Virus record (IMG/VR): IMGVR_UViG_3300022407_006288
Location: 1 to 64,000 of that record
Direction: 5' to 3' (one strand)
Origin: a virus
DNA: 64,000 nucleotides
Within the stretch, counting starts at the first letter, position 1. Every line of letters begins with the position of its first letter. The notes beneath the pieces are model-generated. The model was not told the origin of the DNA, searched no databases, and was given only the letters and a program-made list of their open reading frames with translations. A program made the translations under genes and the position numbers. This document shows positions 1-7,852 of the stretch, piece by piece.

Positions 1-657
1 TATGCTATGGATTTCCTAGTACCTGCCAATAAACAAGTAGCCGGTGATAGTGACACCTGTATTAATGCAAAAGGTAGACACGTGATCATTATTGGTGGCG
101 GGGATACAGGTTCGGACTGTGTGGGAACTGCTAACAGACAAGGTGCTACACATATCACACAGCTAACACGTTCGTCACAGCCGCCGGAACAAGATGATGT
201 ATTGGTATGGCCGGGTTGGCCCAACAAAATGCGTACCAGTTCATCTCATGAGGAGGGATGTGACCGGCTTTGGTCGGTACTTCCCAAACGCATAGACGGC
301 AAAGATGGTCAAGTAACTGCGCTGACAGCAGTGAGATTAGAATGGGTTAATGGCAAAATGCAGGAAATTCCGGGTAGCAAGTTTGAGATCAAAGCAGATT
401 TGATACTGTTAGCCGCAGGCTTTGTAAGTCCCATGCAACAGCTTGTAGATGCATTTGGCGTCGAACAAGATGCTGACAAAAATGTTAAAGCCAGTACTGA
501 CGGCGGCATCGCTTATCGTACCAATATTGATAAGGTGTTTGTAGCAGGTGACATGCGCCGTGGACAGAGCCTCGTGGTTTGGGCTATACGTGAAGGCAGA
601 CAGGCAGCACGGGCAGTTGATGCTTATCTTATGGGGAAAAGTGTACTGCCGTTATGA
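1..657 (+). CDS. gltD: Glutamate synthase small subunit, C-terminal part (gene begins upstream of window)
   Basis: NADPH-binding GGGDTGSDC and C-terminal AGDMRRGQSLVVWAIREGR motifs; frame is open from base 1, so the Met at 7 is internal. Confidence 0.92.
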   Translation, partial: YAMDFLVPANKQVAGDSDTCINAKGRHVIIIGGGDTGSDCVGTANRQGATHITQLTRSSQPPEQDDVLVWPGWPNKMRTSSSHEEGCDRLWSVLPKRIDGKDGQVTALTAVRLEWVNGKMQEIPGSKFEIKADLILLAAGFVSPMQQLVDAFGVEQDADKNVKASTDGGIAYRTNIDKVFVAGDMRRGQSLVVWAIREGRQAARAVDAYLMGKSVLPL

Positions 658-673
658 TTAAGATAAGTAAGGG

Positions 674-880
674 ATGAACATAATTAAATGGATATGTTTT
701 GGTATTATGCTGTCAGGGGCTTTGGTAACAAGTCTACAGCCGGATACCATCATAGGCGTTGAACTGCTGTTTGTGGGCAACGTGGCTTGGCTGATTACCG
801 CTATCTATAGTAAGTATTGGCCCAGTGCCGCAAACTTTTCTATGCTGGCATCAATATGGTTGCTGGGTGTGATAAAATAG
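674..880 (+). CDS. Small membrane protein, ~3 hydrophobic segments, unknown function
   Basis: 68 aa, strongly hydrophobic, AAGTAAGGG RBS-like sequence upstream, sits between gltD and iscS. Confidence 0.65.
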
Positions 881-888
881 TATATAAT
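860..888 (+). promoter_or_regulatory. Sigma70-type promoter for iscS-glyA-sdhA
   Basis: TTGCTG-17 bp-TATAAT, followed by GAGGAG RBS and ATG at 904. Confidence 0.7.
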
Positions 889-903
889 GTAGAGGAGAAC
901 ATA

Positions 904-2124
904 ATGATAGATTACGCAGAATTTCCAGTTTACTTAGATTATAGCTCAACTACACCCATGGATCCACTGGTGGTGGATGCCATGATTCCCTACATGCGTG
1001 AGCAGTTTGGAAATCCTGCATCGCGTAGTCATGCCTATGGATGGAGTGCTGAAGCTGCCGTGGAGCAGGCTAGACAACATGTGGCCAATTTGGTGTCAGC
1101 AGATCCTAGAGAAATTGTTTGGACAAGTGGTGCTACCGAAAGCATAAATCTTGCTATCAAGGGCGCAGCCAAATTCAGAAAAGGACAAGGTCAACATATC
1201 ATTACAGTAAAAACTGAACACAAGGCCACCCTGGATACTTGTCGGGAACTAGAGCGTGATGGATGGCAAGTGACCTATCTTGATGTACAACCCAATGGCT
1301 TGATTGACATGGCACGGTTAGAGTCGGCTATACGGCCCGATACAGTGTTGATCAGCGTGATCTATGTCAACAACGAAATTGGTGTGATACAGGATATTGA
1401 AAAAATTGGTGAACTGGCCAGATCACGAAATATTGTATTTCATGTGGATGCAGCACAGGCCACCGGCAAGGTAGAAATTGATCTACAACGACTCAAGGTT
1501 GATCTCATGAGTTTTTCAGCACATAAAACCTACGGCCCTAAAGGCATTGGCGCTTTGTATGTATGCCGCAAACCGCGAGTGAGAATTGAAGCACAGATGC
1601 ACGGCGGTGGGCATGAACGCGGCATGCGTTCAGGTACATTGGCCACACATCAAATTGTAGGTATGGGCGAGGCATTTAGGTTGGCCAAGCTGAATTTGCA
1701 GGAAGAGACTGCCCGTATCAGAATATTGCGTGACCGATTGTTAGCAGGCCTAGAAACAATAGAGCAAGTCTTTATCAACGGAGATATGAGTCAACGTGTG
1801 CCACATAACCTTAGTATCAGTTTTAACTATGTTGAGGGCGAAAGCATGATCATGGCCCTAAAACAGCTAGCGGTAAGTTCAGGGTCTGCGTGTACATCGG
1901 CTAGCCTTGAGCCAAGTTATGTGTTGCGAGCACTAGGTCGGAATGACGAATTGGCACACAGCAGTATACGATTTACTCTAGGGCGATATACTACCGAACA
2001 AGAAATAGACTTTGCTATTGAGTTAATTCAACGCAAGATTGCTGGGCTAAGAGAACTTAGTCCGCTTTGGGAAATGTACAAAGATGGTATCGATCTAGAC
2101 ACCATACAGTGGTCCAGCCATTAA
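904..2124 (+). CDS. iscS: Cysteine desulfurase IscS
   Basis: [12 protein letters not shown]-lysine [10 protein letters not shown], catalytic SSGSACTS, IscS-type C-terminus [10 protein letters not shown]; start moved from 817 to 904 on the GAGGAG RBS. Confidence 0.96.
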
Positions 2125-2143
2125 CATACCAGAAAGAATAGCC

Positions 2144-3292
2144 ATGATAGATCCCAGAATTCATACAGTCCTACTCGATGAGGGCAATAGACAGGTAAAT
2201 ACCATTGAATTAATTGCCAGTGAAAATTATACCAGTCAAGCGGTAATGGACTTGTGCGGTAGTATCTTTACCAACAAGTATGCTGAAGGACTTCCGGGTA
2301 AACGTTACTATAACGGATGTGTCAATGTAGACGAAATTGAAAATATTGCTATAGAATATGCTACCAAGTTATTTGGATGTGAGTATGCCAATGTTCAACC
2401 GCATTCAGGTGCCAATGCTAATTTGGCAGTGTTTAAAGCATTCTTAAAACCCGGTGATGTTATTGTGGGTATGGACCTGGCTAGTGGCGGGCATTTAAGT
2501 CACGGTGCTAAAGTTAATGCCAGCGGTGCTTGGTTTGAATCGTACACCTACGGGGTTAATGATCAGGGATTGATTGATTACGAAGCGGTAGCACAGCTAG
2601 TTTTAGACACAAAACCGGCAATGGTAATTGCTGGTGCTAGTTCATATAGTCAAGTGATTGATTGGAAGAGGTTCCGCAAGATTGCTGATTCAGTCAATGC
2701 ATTGCTGCTTGCAGATATAGCCCATTACTCGGGACTAGTTGCGGGAGGCGAATATCCAAGTCCGTTCCCTTATGCTGACATAGTGACTACCACCACACAC
2801 AAGGGACTGAGAGGTCCACGAGGCGGAATCATCATGTGGAACAATCCGGAATACTGCAAGAAAATAAACTCGGCAGTATTTCCTGGAACACAAGGCGGTC
2901 CACTCATGCATATTATTGCGGCTAAAGCACAATGTTTTTATGAAGCGTTGCAGCCCGACTTTAAGTTGTATGCCAAGCGCATCCGTATCAATGCACATGC
3001 CATGGCACAGACATTTTTAGATGCCGGTATTGATGTTGTCAGCGGCGGGACACAATGCCACATGTTTACTTTAGACCTGCGTAAAGAGCAATTGAGTGGT
3101 AGACAGTATGCTGACCTGCTCGAAACACATGGCATCACAGTAAACAAAAATGGTGTACCTGGCGAAACTAGAAGTTTTGTAGAAACGAGTGGTGTACGTA
3201 TTGGTGTTGCAGCCGAAACTACCCGAGGACATGATGAAGCATGGTTCAAAGAATTGGCTAATAGAATGATTGCAATTTTAAGAGATAATTGA
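2144..3292 (+). CDS. glyA: Serine hydroxymethyltransferase (382 aa, short C-terminus)
   Basis: LIASENY, YAEGLPGKRYYNG, NVQPHSG and PLP-lysine TTTTHKGLRGPRGG motifs. Confidence 0.95.
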   Translation: MIDPRIHTVLLDEGNRQVNTIELIASENYTSQAVMDLCGSIFTNKYAEGLPGKRYYNGCVNVDEIENIAIEYATKLFGCEYANVQPHSGANANLAVFKAFLKPGDVIVGMDLASGGHLSHGAKVNASGAWFESYTYGVNDQGLIDYEAVAQLVLDTKPAMVIAGASSYSQVIDWKRFRKIADSVNALLLADIAHYSGLVAGGEYPSPFPYADIVTTTTHKGLRGPRGGIIMWNNPEYCKKINSAVFPGTQGGPLMHIIAAKAQCFYEALQPDFKLYAKRIRINAHAMAQTFLDAGIDVVSGGTQCHMFTLDLRKEQLSGRQYADLLETHGITVNKNGVPGETRSFVETSGVRIGVAAETTRGHDEAWFKELANRMIAILRDN

Positions 3293-3302
3293 GAATTATA
3301 GA

Positions 3303-5090
3303 ATGAACAAAATACAAAGTAAAAAATTTGATGTTGTGATTGTGGGCGCGGGAGGAGCAGGTATGAGGGCCAGTCTGCAATTGGCACGTGTTGGACTGAG
3401 GGTGGCGGTGATTTCCAAAGTGTTTCCAACACGTAGCCATACAGTAGCAGCACAGGGTGGTATTGGCGCGGCACTGGGCAACATGAAAGAAGACAACTGG
3501 CACTATCACTTTTATGATACTGTAAAAGGATCTGACTGGTTAGGCGACCAGGACGCTATTGAATTCATGTGTCGTGAAGCACCCAAGGCAGTATATGACT
3601 TAGATCACATGGGCATGCCTTTTGATAGAAATGAAGACGGCACTATCTATCAGCGTCCTTTTGGTGGGCACACTGCCAACTACGGCAAAGAACCTGTAGA
3701 AAGAGCCTGCGCTGCCGCTGACCGTACTGGTCATGCCATGCTGCATACTTTATATCAAGCCAATCGTGCTGCCGGTACTACATTTTTTGTAGAATGGCTG
3801 GCATTGGATCTAATACGAGATGGTGAAGGTGATGTGTTGGGTGTGACAGCAATGGATATTGAAACAGGTGCTACACAAATTTTTGAAGCCAAGTCCACAT
3901 TGTTGGCTACAGGTGGTGCTGGCCGTATTTATGCTGCATCAACTAATGCTTTTATCAATACCGGCGACGGATTGGGAATGGCTGCTAGGGCCGGTATTCC
4001 TCTCGAAGACATGGAGTTTTGGCAATTCCATCCTACCGGAGTTGCCGGTGCTGGGGTGCTGTTAACGGAAGGTTGCAGAGGAGAAGGTGCTATCTTGGTC
4101 AACGCTCTGGGAGAACGATTCATGGAACGCTATGCACCCGTGTTAAAAGATCTAGCACCTAGAGACTTTATTAGCCGTTGCATGGATCAAGAAATTAAAG
4201 AAGGTCGTGGTTGTGGTCCTAACAAAGATTATATCTTGTTAAAACTGGATCATCTGGGCACTGACACTATTATGAAAAGACTGCCTTCGGTTTATGAAAT
4301 TGGCAAAGACTTTGCCAACGTGGATGTTACAAAAGAATCCATTCCGGTAGTACCCACCATACATTATCAAATGGGCGGTATTCCTACTAACATCAATGGT
4401 CAAGTGGTTATACCTAAAGACGGCAATCCTAATCACGTGGTTAATGGTCTGTATGCAATTGGTGAATGTTCTTGTGTATCAGTACACGGGGCAAATCGTT
4501 TAGGTACCAACTCACTGCTGGACTTGTTAGTGTTTGGCAAAGCAGCAGGCGATCATGTTGTAAATTCCAATCTAAAGAACAAACAGCACAAGCAATTGCC
4601 AGCAGATGCCGGTCAACAATCATTGGATCGTATTAATTGCCTGAACACCAATTCCACAGGCGAGTATGCTCAAACTGTGGCTAATGATATTCGTGATACC
4701 ATGCAAAAACATGCCGCAGTGTTTCGCACACAAGCCAGCATGGACGAAGGTGTAAACAAGATTGCTGAATTAAGACTACGAGTAGCCAATATCGGGCTCA
4801 AAGATAAAAGTATGGAATTTAACTCGGCAAGAGTAGAAGCACTAGAGGTAGCAAACTTGATTGAAGCAGCCGAAGCCACCATGGTCTCCGCGGCTGCTCG
4901 TCGTGAATGTCGAGGTGCTCACACTGTGGCAGACTATGAGAATGTGGAAGGTTGTGCCAATGGTCGAAACGATAAAGAGTGGCACAAGCATACATTGTGG
5001 TACAGAGAAGGTAATAGATTAGACTACAAACCAGTGCAGATGACACCACTAACCGTAGAATCTGTGCCACTTAAAGTACGTACATTTTAA
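3303..5090 (+). CDS. sdhA: Succinate dehydrogenase flavoprotein subunit
   Basis: GAGGAG FAD loop, RSHTVAAQGG covalent-FAD His, QFHPTG, TEGCRGEG, APRD, HYQMGG and HGANRLGTNSL all intact. Confidence 0.96.
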   Translation: MNKIQSKKFDVVIVGAGGAGMRASLQLARVGLRVAVISKVFPTRSHTVAAQGGIGAALGNMKEDNWHYHFYDTVKGSDWLGDQDAIEFMCREAPKAVYDLDHMGMPFDRNEDGTIYQRPFGGHTANYGKEPVERACAAADRTGHAMLHTLYQANRAAGTTFFVEWLALDLIRDGEGDVLGVTAMDIETGATQIFEAKSTLLATGGAGRIYAASTNAFINTGDGLGMAARAGIPLEDMEFWQFHPTGVAGAGVLLTEGCRGEGAILVNALGERFMERYAPVLKDLAPRDFISRCMDQEIKEGRGCGPNKDYILLKLDHLGTDTIMKRLPSVYEIGKDFANVDVTKESIPVVPTIHYQMGGIPTNINGQVVIPKDGNPNHVVNGLYAIGECSCVSVHGANRLGTNSLLDLLVFGKAAGDHVVNSNLKNKQHKQLPADAGQQSLDRINCLNTNSTGEYAQTVANDIRDTMQKHAAVFRTQASMDEGVNKIAELRLRVANIGLKDKSMEFNSARVEALEVANLIEAAEATMVSAAARRECRGAHTVADYENVEGCANGRNDKEWHKHTLWYREGNRLDYKPVQMTPLTVESVPLKVRTF

Positions 5091-5095
5091 TTGTT

Positions 5096-5341
5096 ATGGA
5101 AAGTAAAAAATTTGCGTGGTTGCCGACTAAAGTGACTAGTGGAAAACGTATATGGATGTCCTATTACATACTGCATCGGAACTATGTAGACCCTGCGACC
5201 GGCATGACTCCCTTGTTTAAATTATATTTTGAATGGACTGAAACCCCTCAGGAAAAAACCTGGAGACTGCTAAACGGTAATATGATACAAAATAGAAATG
5301 TTTGGAACAGTCCGATATTAACAAAACAGGATAAAATATGA
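5096..5341 (+). CDS. Hypothetical phage protein
   Basis: 81-aa ORF packed 5 bp after sdhA, FAWLP...W pattern common in small phage ORFs. Confidence 0.6.
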   Translation: MESKKFAWLPTKVTSGKRIWMSYYILHRNYVDPATGMTPLFKLYFEWTETPQEKTWRLLNGNMIQNRNVWNSPILTKQDKI

Positions 5342-5367
5342 GCATCCACGATATATCTGCTATTATA

Positions 5368-5396
5368 TTGACTCATGCTCTATTTGAGTGTATAAT
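5368..5396 (+). promoter_or_regulatory. Sigma70-type promoter with inverted repeat in spacer
   Basis: TTGACT-17 bp-TATAAT with TG extension; ACTCA-N9-TGAGT at 5371-5389. Confidence 0.8.
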
Positions 5397-5402
5397 TAAC
5401 AC

Positions 5403-5927
5403 ATGAATCAAAATGTAATGATAGATATTGAAAGCGACGGGCCTTGTCCTGGTATGCATAGCATGATCTGCTTTGGCGCAGTGATTGTGGAAGCAGGATT
5501 ACAACGCACCTTTTACGCAACATTAAAACCCATTTCAGAAACTTATGTGCCCGAAGCACTTGCCATCAGCGGATTTAGTCGTGAAGACTGCATGAAGTTT
5601 CCAGATCCGCGTGATGCCATGCAAAACTTTGATCTTTGGTTGGCAAAAAATATTCCCGGAAAGAGGCCAATTTTTTGGTCCGATAACAACTCATATGATG
5701 CAGGATTTATGAATTATTATTTTCATATGTATCTGGGTCGTAATCCGTTTGGATGGAGTTCTTCCAATCTAGGATCATTTTATAAAGGTGTTAAACAGGA
5801 TATCTATGCAAAGTTTACTCATTTGCGTGATACCGAGCATACACACCATCCGGTAGATGATGCCAGGGGTAATGCCGAAGCATTGTTAAAAATATTTCAA
5901 ATGATTAAGTCTAGATCCGTATATTAA
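5403..5927 (+). CDS. DEDDh 3'-5' exonuclease (Rv2179c-like exoribonuclease family)
   Basis: ExoI MIDIESDG, ExoII NNSYD and ExoIII HHPVDDA motifs. Confidence 0.82.
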   Translation: MNQNVMIDIESDGPCPGMHSMICFGAVIVEAGLQRTFYATLKPISETYVPEALAISGFSREDCMKFPDPRDAMQNFDLWLAKNIPGKRPIFWSDNNSYDAGFMNYYFHMYLGRNPFGWSSSNLGSFYKGVKQDIYAKFTHLRDTEHTHHPVDDARGNAEALLKIFQMIKSRSVY

Positions 5928-5939
5928 GAGAGCATATGT

Positions 5940-6179
5940 ATGAGTAATAAAAACTATGTAATTGAGTTGGCTAAAAAATCTGGTATTGACAATGATATAT
6001 TTGCGGTATCTAATCGTGCTGTAATTGAATTTTTTAACGCCGTTGTAGAGGAGTGCGCAAAGGTTGCAGAAAGGCAGGCACGAAGTTATACTGGTGAAAG
6101 TAACGAACACGTGGGCTGTCGTGATTCTGCAACAGCAATTCGTACATTTGGTAAACTAATTGACAACTATGAAATCTAA
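5940..6179 (+). CDS. Hypothetical phage protein
   Basis: 79-aa ORF with AAGAGAG RBS, within tightly packed run. Confidence 0.6.
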   Translation: MSNKNYVIELAKKSGIDNDIFAVSNRAVIEFFNAVVEECAKVAERQARSYTGESNEHVGCRDSATAIRTFGKLIDNYEI

Positions 6180-6315
6180 ACAATATTTTCAAAAAAATCA
6201 TTCACATAAAACAAATGAAGAATTACATCAAGAAGTTAAAACTCTTGAAGATGAGAATGAAACGCTTAAAGCATTAATTAGAGATATTCTCAAAATGTTG
6301 GGGGAGAAAATTTAA
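6169..6315 (+). CDS. Small coiled-coil protein (48 aa, not in ORF track)
   Basis: MKSKQYFQKNHSHKTNEELHQEVKTLEDENETLKALIRDILKMLGEKI; fills the gap exactly and its TAA overlaps the next ATG (TAATG). Confidence 0.6.
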   Translation: MKSKQYFQKNHSHKTNEELHQEVKTLEDENETLKALIRDILKMLGEKI

Positions 6316-6734
6316 TGACAATGCATTTGGTGGGGCCATATTTGTCAACTACTTCCACAAAGAAAAGGGTTGAAAAGATCACAAAGGCCAAGCAACAGGA
6401 ACTGGAGCAAGGGTGGCGCGAGCGTAATCAGCGCCTAAAAGAAATGCGTCTTCCCAAGGAGTCTTTTGATCAGTATCTAGAATGGGTATACGGTCGTGGT
6501 AAAAAGACCAAAATCCAACACAAGTATGAAGTTACAAGTTCAGCTATGCCCGATAAAAGTGTCGAACCTGTTTCTAGACCAAATACCTGGACTACCGGAG
6601 CATGTGCTCTTAAGGCTTCTCCAAAATACACAGGCACACAAATTCTAGGAATTGCCACAATGCATAAAAGTAATATGGTGCCTGTTTTTAGTAATCAGGA
6701 AGCCAAGGACATTTCTACAATGAGGCGTGGATGA
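6315..6734 (+). CDS. Conserved hypothetical protein of T4-like phages
   Basis: C-terminal YTG...GIATMHKSNMVPV...ISTMRR motif that I recognise from large myoviruses. Confidence 0.7.
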   Translation: MTMHLVGPYLSTTSTKKRVEKITKAKQQELEQGWRERNQRLKEMRLPKESFDQYLEWVYGRGKKTKIQHKYEVTSSAMPDKSVEPVSRPNTWTTGACALKASPKYTGTQILGIATMHKSNMVPVFSNQEAKDISTMRRG

Positions 6735-6958
6735 GCAAAGATTTTAAAATGTTAAGAGATAGTGATTTTGATCCTTCTATTGCACCAAATGCATGGCACA
6801 ATTTTGAAGCACTAGATCGATGCCATATGATCATAATTCACATTACCGAAGCATTATGCAATCACCCGGCACTCACAGACGAAGAAGCAGAACTTGCGGA
6901 ATCTGCAGTAGACAATCTTATGGAAATATATCAGCGTCTAGGTCAAAGAACACTATAA
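6731..6958 (+). CDS. Hypothetical phage protein
   Basis: 75 aa, ATGA overlap with the upstream gene. Confidence 0.6.
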   Translation: MSKDFKMLRDSDFDPSIAPNAWHNFEALDRCHMIIIHITEALCNHPALTDEEAELAESAVDNLMEIYQRLGQRTL

Positions 6959-6961
6959 CAG

Positions 6962-7852
6962 TTATGTTCTGTCTGATTGAAGTTTATGACCTAAATTGGT
7001 ATCTAGATCTAGTGCACCGTTTTTAACATATAGTGCTCTGTTACTTAATAATTCGACCCATGTTTGATCTGCTGGATCATTTAATTTCCAGAAATCAAAT
7101 ACCATATGACTTTGAACTGGACGTACATACATGGTATGATCGGATGGTATCATCATGATTTGCGCAGTAGTTCGCATTTTCTTTGTTTGATCTGTTGTTC
7201 TAAATGCGTTTAGTTGCGGGTTATCAACATATGTTTTACACAAGTCATCAATAAGATCTTGTGGTGTTCTAGCATGTTTGACCACACGCTCTGCTATTAG
7301 CAACCTAGACTCCGAACTAATTCTGCTGGCACTTTCAGCATCATCATCTCTGGTATACTGATATCCGGCGCCTTTTAGCCAAACACCGTGATTGGTTCGA
7401 GCCACAGTGTGATCTTGCGGTATTAATCCTATTTTGTATTCAAAGTCTTTTTTGGCATAATCAGTCCATGCGCCTTCAATTAGGATCATGGTGTCACGAT
7501 CAAAAACTAAGGTACACCCAGTAAGTTTATTATCAATTAAACTTTTGACAGCAGACTTAAGGCTGGTTTCGGCAAGAGCTTTTCTTATTTTTATGCCGTC
7601 TTTGCTTGGTCTTTTGGCTCTGACGGTAATTTCTTTTTCGTCATCTAGCACCATTAAGCTGGCACTGAGTATGCATATACCGGCAGAGTTTAATCCCTCC
7701 GAATATTGTGTAATATCGTCCCAGAAATATAAAACTTCAGTGTTGTTTTCTATTTTTTTACGGAAACTAATTTCGGGCACATAATTGCGGTCCCGATTTT
7801 TAACAGCCACCCAGCCTATGTCTTTGAAGTATTTGCCAACAACTACACACAT
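6962..7852 (-). CDS. Ntn-hydrolase, NRDE/TANGO2-like
   Basis: Met-Cys start (N-terminal nucleophile), hydrophobic strand then KNRD motif, RTNHG; AAGGA RBS and late promoter upstream. Confidence 0.6.
   Translation of the reverse strand: MCVVVGKYFKDIGWVAVKNRDRNYVPEISFRKKIENNTEVLYFWDDITQYSEGLNSAGICILSASLMVLDDEKEITVRAKRPSKDGIKIRKALAETSLKSAVKSLIDNKLTGCTLVFDRDTMILIEGAWTDYAKKDFEYKIGLIPQDHTVARTNHGVWLKGAGYQYTRDDDAESASRISSESRLLIAERVVKHARTPQDLIDDLCKTYVDNPQLNAFRTTDQTKKMRTTAQIMMIPSDHTMYVRPVQSHMVFDFWKLNDPADQTWVELLSNRALYVKNGALDLDTNLGHKLQSDRT

What the first reader, a model, noticed from the sequence alone, without database searches (positions are those of the whole stretch)
3303..5090. Orphan full-length SdhA with no sdhB/C/D
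Seen: every catalytic and FAD motif is intact, yet the neighbours are glyA and an 81-aa phage ORF. Established: SdhA needs SdhB/CD for quinone coupling and SdhE for flavinylation, and a free flavoprotein subunit can oxidise or reduce dicarboxylates or leak ROS. Inference: the phage either swaps its own catalytic subunit into host complex II or uses it as a soluble enzyme. I do not recall this as a common phage auxiliary gene.
Basis: partly seen in the sequence, partly recalled or inferred. Interest (0 to 1): 0.72.

Follow-up and report, generated by a model that had tools for sequence, protein, structure and literature searches.

The report
Jumbo phage carries lone SdhA gene
A large freshwater phage carries an intact, strongly conserved copy of only the catalytic flavoprotein of its host's succinate dehydrogenase; sister phages carry single core subunits of other respiratory complexes in the same gene island, so these phages probably top up host respiration much as cyanophages supply photosystem core proteins.

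Summary
ORF 3303-5090 (+) is a full-length SdhA: it scores 888 bits on TIGR01816 (cut-off 727) and keeps the FAD-linking histidine and all catalytic residues.

It lies on a genuine jumbo myophage contig of 131 kb, about 33% of the genome. The nearest cultured relative is Pseudomonas phage PA5oct.

No sdhB, sdhC, sdhD or sdhE was found in those 131 kb or beside sdhA in seven related contigs. The unsequenced two thirds could not be checked.

- **Origin:** six phage copies form one clade nested in freshwater Comamonadaceae (about 80% identity).
- **Selection:** dN/dS is 0.03-0.045, GC3 has drifted to phage values, and 264 of 272 universally invariant bacterial sites are kept.
- **Setting:** sdhA sits in a variable slot of the nrdA-nrdB region. 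Sister phages hold NuoF, CoxA, CoxB, GltD, SHMT or IscS in that slot.
- **Host supply:** three candidate host genomes encode SdhE; the one host locus read gene by gene (Polaromonas) shows sdhCDAB-sdhE.

Best reading (about 0.55): a psbA-style spare part that host SdhE flavinylates and that docks on host SdhB/CD.

I rejected the idea that the conserved 81-aa neighbour is an SdhA partner.

This scan has noted phage coxA on other DNA, but not phage sdhA. I found no genome-resolved description in the paper library I searched.

The parts
3303..5090 (+). sdhA: succinate dehydrogenase flavoprotein subunit, 595 aa, intact
   Evidence: TIGR01816 888 bits against cut-off 727. Aligns to 1NEK_A at E 6e-209. 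Catalytic and FAD residues are conserved. dN/dS is 0.03-0.045 within the phage clade.
5096..5341 (+). 81-aa conserved phage ORF marking the 3' border of the variable slot; not an SdhA-specific partner
   Evidence: It lies directly 3' of sdhA in all seven phage contexts. The family has at least 73 clusters, and in sdhA-less jumbo phages it sits between nrdA and nrdB. No Pfam match; a weak match to phrog_7749.
2144..3292 (+). glyA: serine hydroxymethyltransferase, 10 nt upstream of sdhA
   Evidence: PF00464 E 3.5e-144; NF000586 547 bits. 84% identical to the SHMT of relative L001.
904..2124 (+). iscS: cysteine desulfurase. The likely start is ATG 904 behind a GAGGAG ribosome-binding site; the mechanical ORF starts at TTG 817.
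   Evidence: TIGR02006 711 bits against cut-off 643. Sequence read.
674..880 (+). 68-aa hydrophobic small protein, homologue of the 72-aa gene at the 5' side of the slot in relatives
   Evidence: Translation. 66% identical to L001:1586-1804. A gene of the same size and position occurs in L211 and L212.
1..657 (+). 3' part of gltD (glutamate synthase small subunit), cut by the contig end
   Evidence: TIGR01317 matches profile positions 258-485. 76-82% identical to the full-length gltD next to sdhA in L002, L004 and L005.
5368..5396 (+). sigma-70-like promoter (TTGACT-17-TATAAT, 11 of 12) after the cassette, ahead of the exonuclease gene 5403-5927
   Evidence: The late-promoter motif GATAAATA is absent from 1-7800.

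Best explanation
The gene is a host-derived auxiliary metabolic gene of a freshwater jumbo myophage that most likely infects Comamonadaceae (Limnohabitans, Rhodoferax or Polaromonas types).

Proposed mechanism:
1. The gene is probably transcribed with the early nrdA-nrdB region.
2. Host SdhE attaches FAD covalently to His46 of the new apoprotein.
3. The holo-flavoprotein docks on host SdhB-SdhCD.
4. This sustains or raises succinate:quinone oxidoreductase capacity, and with it TCA flux and quinone reduction, during a long infection in which host gene expression is lost.

It is the complex II member of a spare-parts island. Sister phages carry NuoF (complex I), CoxA and CoxB (complex IV), GltD, cytochrome c and Fe-S assembly genes in the same slot.

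Shown: identity, integrity, phage location, single host-derived origin, strong purifying selection, lack of partner genes nearby, and presence of sdhE in three candidate host genomes (sdhCDAB-sdhE order read in one, Polaromonas).

Inferred: early expression, dependence on host SdhE, and assembly with host SdhB/CD.
For: - **Genuine phage:** T4-type baseplate and tail-fibre genes at 8-34 kb. gp10, T4-type terminase, gp32, UvsX-like and DnaB-like genes further along. TerL is 60% identical to jumbo phage PA5oct.
- **Not a host flank:** sdhA GC3 is 0.37, against 0.67-0.84 in Comamonadaceae and 0.23-0.33 in the phage's structural genes.
- **Seen repeatedly:** the same gene lies between phage genes in seven contigs from several samples.
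- **Single origin:** six phage copies form one clade (SH-aLRT 100) nested in a Comamonadaceae clade.
- **Selection:** dN/dS is 0.029-0.045 with dS above 1.
- **Full constraint profile:** 264 of 272 sites that are at least 97% invariant in 224 bacterial SdhA are kept in all six copies, and the changes are conservative.
- **Partner surface kept:** the loops homologous to FrdA 50-58 and 103-129, which the Fe-S subunit stabilises, are conserved (PMC5773532).
- **Hosts supply the rest:** Rhodoferax, Limnohabitans and Polaromonas genomes each encode SdhE; the sdhC-D-A-B-sdhE gene order was read in the Polaromonas locus.
- **Same pattern for other complexes:** bona fide NuoF, CoxA, CoxB and GltD in sister phages, 77-83% identical to Comamonadaceae for NuoF and CoxA.
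Against: - There is no direct evidence for expression, flavinylation or assembly.
- Conserved sites also serve catalysis and folding, so they do not prove an SdhB interface.
- Extra SdhA without extra SdhB helps only if free SdhB-CD exists or subunits exchange.
- The phage stem branch is long (0.22 substitutions per site). Several phage-fixed changes (E185D, M186I, V191T, H192Q) lie next to the residue homologous to FrdA M176 on the SdhE/SdhB-binding surface. This could mean retuning of that surface.
- Two thirds of the genome is unseen.
Confidence: 0.55

Rival explanations
1. Free-standing soluble flavoenzyme. Phage SdhA, once flavinylated, works without SdhB/CD as a succinate oxidase or fumarate reductase with some soluble acceptor or donor, or as a source of reactive oxygen.
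For: No partner genes lie nearby. Soluble SdhA homologues exist in nature, such as NadB, Osm1 and flavocytochrome c (PMC10238741).
Against: It scores as the forward SdhA equivalog, not as NadB (357 bits against cut-off 452.75) or flavocytochrome c. There are no extra domains. The full bacterial constraint profile is kept, with no relaxation that would suggest a freed SdhB surface. The isolated flavoprotein bound to SdhE is reported to be inhibited for succinate/fumarate interconversion (PMC5773532).
Confidence: 0.15
2. New soluble redox complex. Phage SdhA pairs with phage GltD (two 4Fe-4S clusters, FAD, NAD(P)H site), and perhaps NuoF, to form an NAD(P)H:fumarate oxidoreductase that acts as an electron sink.
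For: gltD is directly upstream of sdhA in L002/L003 and L004/L005, and 2.6 kb upstream in the window. nuoF-gltD-sdhA are contiguous in L002. Phage GltD is only 59-67% identical to Burkholderiales GltD, more diverged than the other subunits.
Against: The adjacency is not universal: L001 has coxA upstream, L203 has cytochrome c, and L204 has DoxX. GltD, NuoF and SdhA each pass their equivalog or subfamily cut-offs as ordinary subunits. SdhA shows no remodelling of invariant sites.
Confidence: 0.1
3. The phage carries a complete sdh set, as giant viruses do, with sdhB/C/D encoded in the unsequenced two thirds of the genome.
For: Only about 33% of the genome is in hand. Giant viruses PkV-RF01 and co-PelV carry all four subunits.
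Against: sdhA is never next to sdhB/C/D in seven phage contexts. The island also holds other lone subunits: NuoF without a visible NuoE or NuoG, and CoxA/B without a visible CoxC. Bacterial sdh genes are normally contiguous.
Confidence: 0.1
4. Assembly chimera, host flank or recent passenger gene with no role for the phage.
For: The cassette lies at the contig end, and its GC (0.43-0.48) is above the phage mean of 0.385.
Against: GC3 has shifted to 0.37 from host values of 0.67-0.84. The gene order is unlike any bacterial sdh locus. The same gene lies between phage genes (cytochrome c ... sdhA-81aa-nrdB) in a 335-kb contig and five other contexts. Purifying selection holds over dS above 1.
Confidence: 0.03

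Closest known systems
SdhA of freshwater Comamonadaceae (Rhodoferax, Limnohabitans, Polaromonas); structural reference E. coli SdhA, PDB 1NEK
   Same: 78-82% identity to Comamonadaceae SdhA and an end-to-end alignment with 1NEK_A. Same two Pfam domains, covalent-FAD histidine and catalytic residues.
   Different: It is encoded by a phage, alone, outside any sdhCDAB-sdhE operon. GC3 is 0.37 against 0.67-0.84. It sits on a long stem branch with 25 phage-fixed substitutions.
Cyanophage psbA/psbD and phage pmoC/amoC: single core subunits of host energy complexes carried as auxiliary metabolic genes
   Same: A host-derived single subunit of a multi-subunit membrane complex, kept under purifying selection in a large phage. 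The partners are presumably supplied by the host (amoC phages: bioRxiv 10.64898/2026.06.18.733297; psbA from my own knowledge).
   Different: The subunit here is a peripheral flavoprotein of respiratory complex II that needs covalent flavinylation by a host factor. No expression or incorporation data exist.
Giant-virus succinate dehydrogenase (PkV-RF01, co-PelV)
   Same: A virus-encoded complex II flavoprotein, interpreted as support of TCA and respiration during infection.
   Different: Those viruses infect eukaryotes and carry all four subunits SDHA-D. Here a bacteriophage carries only subunit A in the DNA available.
Virome reports that list sdh or sdhA among viral AMGs (Hurwitz 2013, PMC4053976; Yongle Blue Hole, PMC12482060)
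   Same: sdh or sdhA is detected in viral fractions.
   Different: Those are read-level or annotation-level lists with no genome context, phylogeny or selection analysis. Cellular contamination of viromes is a known problem (PMC3877843).

Membership tests
SdhA, succinate dehydrogenase flavoprotein subunit (TIGR01816 sdhA_forward) | Score above the curated equivalog cut-off | tested here: met
   888.1 bits against cut-off 727.35
SdhA, succinate dehydrogenase flavoprotein subunit (TIGR01816 sdhA_forward) | FAD_binding_2 plus Succ_DH_flav_C domain architecture | tested here: met
   PF00890 at residues 10-405 and PF02910 at 461-594
SdhA, succinate dehydrogenase flavoprotein subunit (TIGR01816 sdhA_forward) | Histidine for the 8-alpha-N3-histidyl FAD link, plus catalytic His/Thr/Glu/Arg/His/Arg | tested here: met
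   H46, H243, T255, E256, R287, H354 and R399 align with E. coli H45, H242, T254, E255, R286, H354 and R399. All are invariant in six phage copies.
SdhA, succinate dehydrogenase flavoprotein subunit (TIGR01816 sdhA_forward) | Encoded together with sdhB and the membrane anchor genes | tested here: not met
   No Fer2_3 match and no tblastn match to host SdhB/C/D in the 131-kb record or in relatives' flanks. Only about 33% of the genome could be searched.
SdhA, succinate dehydrogenase flavoprotein subunit (TIGR01816 sdhA_forward) | Covalent flavinylation and assembly into a succinate:quinone oxidoreductase | not testable with these tools
   This needs expression and biochemistry. Candidate hosts do encode SdhE.
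Phage auxiliary metabolic gene of the psbA type (single core subunit of a host complex) | Located inside a bona fide phage genome and flanked by phage genes | tested here: met
   In L001 it lies between coxA and the 81aa-nrdB-grx genes of a 335-kb contig.
Phage auxiliary metabolic gene of the psbA type (single core subunit of a host complex) | Host-derived phylogeny and purifying selection in the phage lineage | tested here: met
   A monophyletic clade nested in Comamonadaceae. dN/dS is 0.03-0.045.
Phage auxiliary metabolic gene of the psbA type (single core subunit of a host complex) | Expressed during infection and incorporated into the host complex | not tested
Soluble SdhA homologues (L-aspartate oxidase NadB, flavocytochrome c) | Score above the family cut-off | tested here: not met
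   TIGR00551 nadB 357.5 bits against cut-off 452.75. TIGR01813 flavocytochrome c 161 bits against 285.

The most novel reading that the evidence does not exclude
The phage flavoprotein does not enter complex II at all. Instead it pairs with the phage-encoded GltD (and NuoF in some relatives) to form a soluble NAD(P)H-linked fumarate reductase or succinate dehydrogenase. That would be a phage-built redox shunt assembled from single subunits of three different host complexes.
Probability: 0.1. Interest if true: 0.85.

Novelty: new member of a known kind. Interest (0 to 1): 0.6.

Why it matters
Phage auxiliary genes for energy metabolism are best known from photosynthesis (psbA/psbD) and from methane or ammonia oxidation (pmoC/amoC). 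This case shows a heterotroph-infecting jumbo phage lineage that keeps the catalytic subunit of respiratory complex II under strong selection. Its sister phages keep the catalytic subunits of complexes I and IV, and Fe-S assembly genes, in the same slot.

If these are spare parts, aerobic respiration in infected freshwater bacteria is partly phage-encoded. That bears on carbon turnover estimates.

It would also give an experimental handle on an open question in complex II biology: whether a foreign flavoprotein can be flavinylated by a resident SdhE and can exchange into, or assemble with, resident SdhB/CD.

The clade is rare. It accounts for six clusters among the roughly 5.8 billion non-redundant protein clusters of the database searched.

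Tried and rejected
- **The 81-aa ORF as an SdhA-specific partner or SdhE analogue.** It follows sdhA in all seven contexts. But the family has at least 73 clusters and sits between nrdA and nrdB in many sdhA-less jumbo phages. It has no Sdh5 match. I rejected the idea: the ORF marks the border of the insertion slot.
- **More phage copies.** Two IMG/VR scans found none. All INPHARED hits are bacterial-type contigs or distant NadB/FrdA-like genes.
- **Whole 335-kb relative.** The record behind L001 is not held, so sdhB/C/D/E could not be searched there.
- **Explicit SdhA-SdhB interface residues.** No coordinates or residue lists were available. I used invariant-site retention and the loops named in PMC5773532 instead.
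- **A close donor for GltD.** A sample of 81 Burkholderiales genomes gave no match above 67% identity.
- **Raw tblastn with host six-frame ORFs.** It was swamped by out-of-frame matches within sdhA, so I re-ran it with a filter.

Full report
**What is there.** The window is the first 64 kb of a 130,872-bp IMG/VR virus record that CheckV rates about 33% complete. ORF 3303-5090 (+) encodes 595 aa carrying FAD_binding_2 and Succ_DH_flav_C. It scores 888 bits on the forward-SdhA equivalog TIGR01816 (cut-off 727), while the NadB, FrdA and flavocytochrome c models stay below their cut-offs. It aligns over its whole length with E. coli SdhA, PDB 1NEK (E 6e-209). An alignment that includes E. coli K-12 SdhA and FrdA maps E. 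coli H45 (covalent FAD), H242, T254, E255, R286, H354 and R399 to window H46, H243, T255, E256, R287, H354 and R399. All are invariant in six phage copies.

**It is a phage gene, not a host flank or a chimera.**
- Positions 8-34 kb encode T4-type tail-fibre and baseplate proteins.
- The rest of the contig encodes gp10, a T4-type terminase, gp32, a RecA/UvsX-like protein, a DnaB-like helicase and an RNA ligase.
- The terminase is 60% identical to that of Pseudomonas jumbo phage PA5oct.
- sdhA has GC3 of 0.37. Its Comamonadaceae homologues have 0.67-0.84, and the phage's structural genes have 0.23-0.33.
- Close homologues (89-94% identity) lie on seven other contigs from several samples, always among phage genes. 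One is a 335-kb contig.

**Partner genes.** The 131 kb contain no Fer2_3 (SdhB) or Sdh5 (SdhE) match. They also contain no tblastn match to the SdhB, SdhC, SdhD or SdhE of Polaromonas, Rhodoferax or Limnohabitans; after filtering, every hit fell inside sdhA itself. The same holds for the flanks of the relatives. Rhodoferax, Limnohabitans and Polaromonas genomes each encode SdhE, and the sdhC-D-A-B-sdhE order was read in the Polaromonas locus L019. Two thirds of this phage genome is missing, and the record behind the 335-kb relative is not held. Absence from the whole genome is therefore not shown.

**Origin and selection.**
- The nearest cellular proteins are Comamonadaceae SdhA at 78-82% identity. 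Other Gammaproteobacteria lie at about 55-59%.
- In a maximum-likelihood tree of 67 sequences, the six phage copies form one clade (SH-aLRT 100) on a long stem (0.22 substitutions per site). That clade sits inside a fully supported Comamonadaceae clade. This points to a single capture from a host of that family.
- Within the phage clade, dN/dS is 0.029-0.045 with dS of 1.2-2.6. The larger dS values are close to saturation. Bacterial pairs give 0.04-0.15.
- Of 272 sites at least 97% invariant in 224 bacterial SdhA, 264 are unchanged in all six phage copies. The eight exceptions are conservative or N-terminal.
- Only 25 substitutions are fixed in the phage clade and rare in bacteria.
- The loops homologous to FrdA 50-58 and 103-129, which contacts with the Fe-S subunit stabilise (PMC5773532), are conserved.
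- Four phage-fixed but conservative changes (E185D, M186I, V191T, H192Q) lie beside the residue homologous to FrdA M176. That residue sits on the shared SdhE/Fe-S-subunit surface. I read this as at most mild retuning.

**Genomic setting.** The 81-aa ORF that follows sdhA does so in every phage context, which suggested a partner protein. A database search showed otherwise. The family has at least 73 clusters, on contigs up to 375 kb. In sdhA-less relatives it lies in the order nrdA, variable genes, 81aa, nrdB, glutaredoxin. The variable stretch holds class II aldolase, cytochrome c, a COQ7-like protein, DoxX and small membrane proteins in many members.

In the sdhA-bearing members the slot contents differ:

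| Context | Gene order |
|---|---|
| L001 | SHMT - CoxB - CoxA - SdhA |
| L002 | DoxX - NuoF - GltD - SdhA |
| L004 | GltD - SdhA - 81aa - SHMT |
| L203 | cytochrome c - SdhA - 81aa - IscA-like |
| Window | GltD - 68aa - IscS - SHMT - SdhA |

NuoF, CoxA, CoxB and GltD pass their curated cut-offs. NuoF is 77-79% and CoxA 81-83% identical to Comamonadaceae proteins. GltD reaches only 59-67%. The slot therefore collects single, cofactor-bearing catalytic subunits of host redox complexes, alongside Fe-S assembly genes.

No late-promoter motif (GATAAATA, enriched elsewhere in the window) occurs in 1-7800. The only strong sigma-70-like promoter lies after the cassette. I infer early or middle expression from this.

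**Mechanism.** The simplest account that fits every lone subunit is replacement or supplementation of host subunits:
1. The phage makes apo-SdhA.
2. Host SdhE flavinylates it.
3. It docks on host SdhB-SdhCD.

Retention of the full bacterial constraint profile supports this, but there is no direct test. Rival readings are a free soluble enzyme, a new GltD/NuoF-SdhA soluble complex, and a full sdh set hidden in the unsequenced part. All remain possible, with the probabilities given in the rival list. An assembly artefact or passenger gene is contradicted by composition, recurrence and selection.

**Comparison with what is known.**
- Giant viruses of algae carry complete SDHA-D sets.
- Virome surveys have listed sdh or sdhA among viral genes without genome context. 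Cellular contamination of such data is a known worry.
- Searches of the paper library for jumbo phage plus succinate dehydrogenase, and for phage nuoF AMGs, found nothing.
- Other agents of this scan noted phage coxA in a halophile jumbo phage and pseudoazurin cassettes in marine T4-like phages. I treat those as untested leads that fit the same theme.

I class the finding as a new member of the known kind 'single core subunit AMG'. The added interest is that it belongs to a modular respiratory island.

**Unpublished genomes.** G144 and G042 were among the 151 genomes sampled. No tree row, alignment row or stated figure rests on them.

Noticed in passing
L001:1811-3097, and contig 81422-81529 (L119:18422-18529, outside the window): The SHMT of the 335-kb relative carries a 40-aa N-terminal CxC...CDGSH-type (mitoNEET-like Fe-S) extension that the window's SHMT lacks. 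A stand-alone small ORF with a variant of the same motif lies 78 kb away in this phage.
   Followed up: partly
window 5096-5341; L206, L208, L209, L211, L212: The 81-aa ORF is a core gene of a PA5oct-related freshwater jumbo-phage group and marks a hypervariable slot between nrdA and nrdB. The slot collects metabolic genes: class II aldolase, cytochrome c, COQ7-like, DoxX, SHMT, CoxA/B, NuoF, GltD and IscS.
   Followed up: yes
L206, L208, L209 (relatives): Relatives encode IscU (NifU_N) and IscA-type Fe-S carriers, ribosomal protein S21, PAAR proteins and a radical SAM enzyme near the same region. Together with the window's iscS, this suggests a phage-borne ISC-type Fe-S assembly set.
   Followed up: no
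contig 86565-87722 (L120:4565-5722) and 82157-83305 (L120:157-1305): An ice-binding-like protein (PF11999, E 1.6e-28) and a 382-aa protein with a C-terminal LuxR/GerE helix-turn-helix are encoded in the second half of the contig.
   Followed up: no
window 674-880: A 68-aa protein with two or three predicted hydrophobic helices is conserved (66%) at the upstream side of the slot in relatives. It has no family match.
   Followed up: partly
INPHARED records CAKLQF020000003.1 and CAKLQH020000002.1: Records of about 250 kb labelled 'Acinetobacter phage MD-2021a' carry sdhA (72% identical to the query); sister records of about 175 kb under the same name (CAKLQF020000007.1, CAKLQH020000006.1) carry nadB. 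They look like bacterial chromosome contigs filed as phage.
   Followed up: no
L002:1491-2912 and window 1-657: Phage GltD is only 59-67% identical to any of 81 sampled Burkholderiales GltD, whereas NuoF, CoxA and SdhA are 77-83% identical. It may be older, faster-evolving or from another donor.
   Followed up: partly
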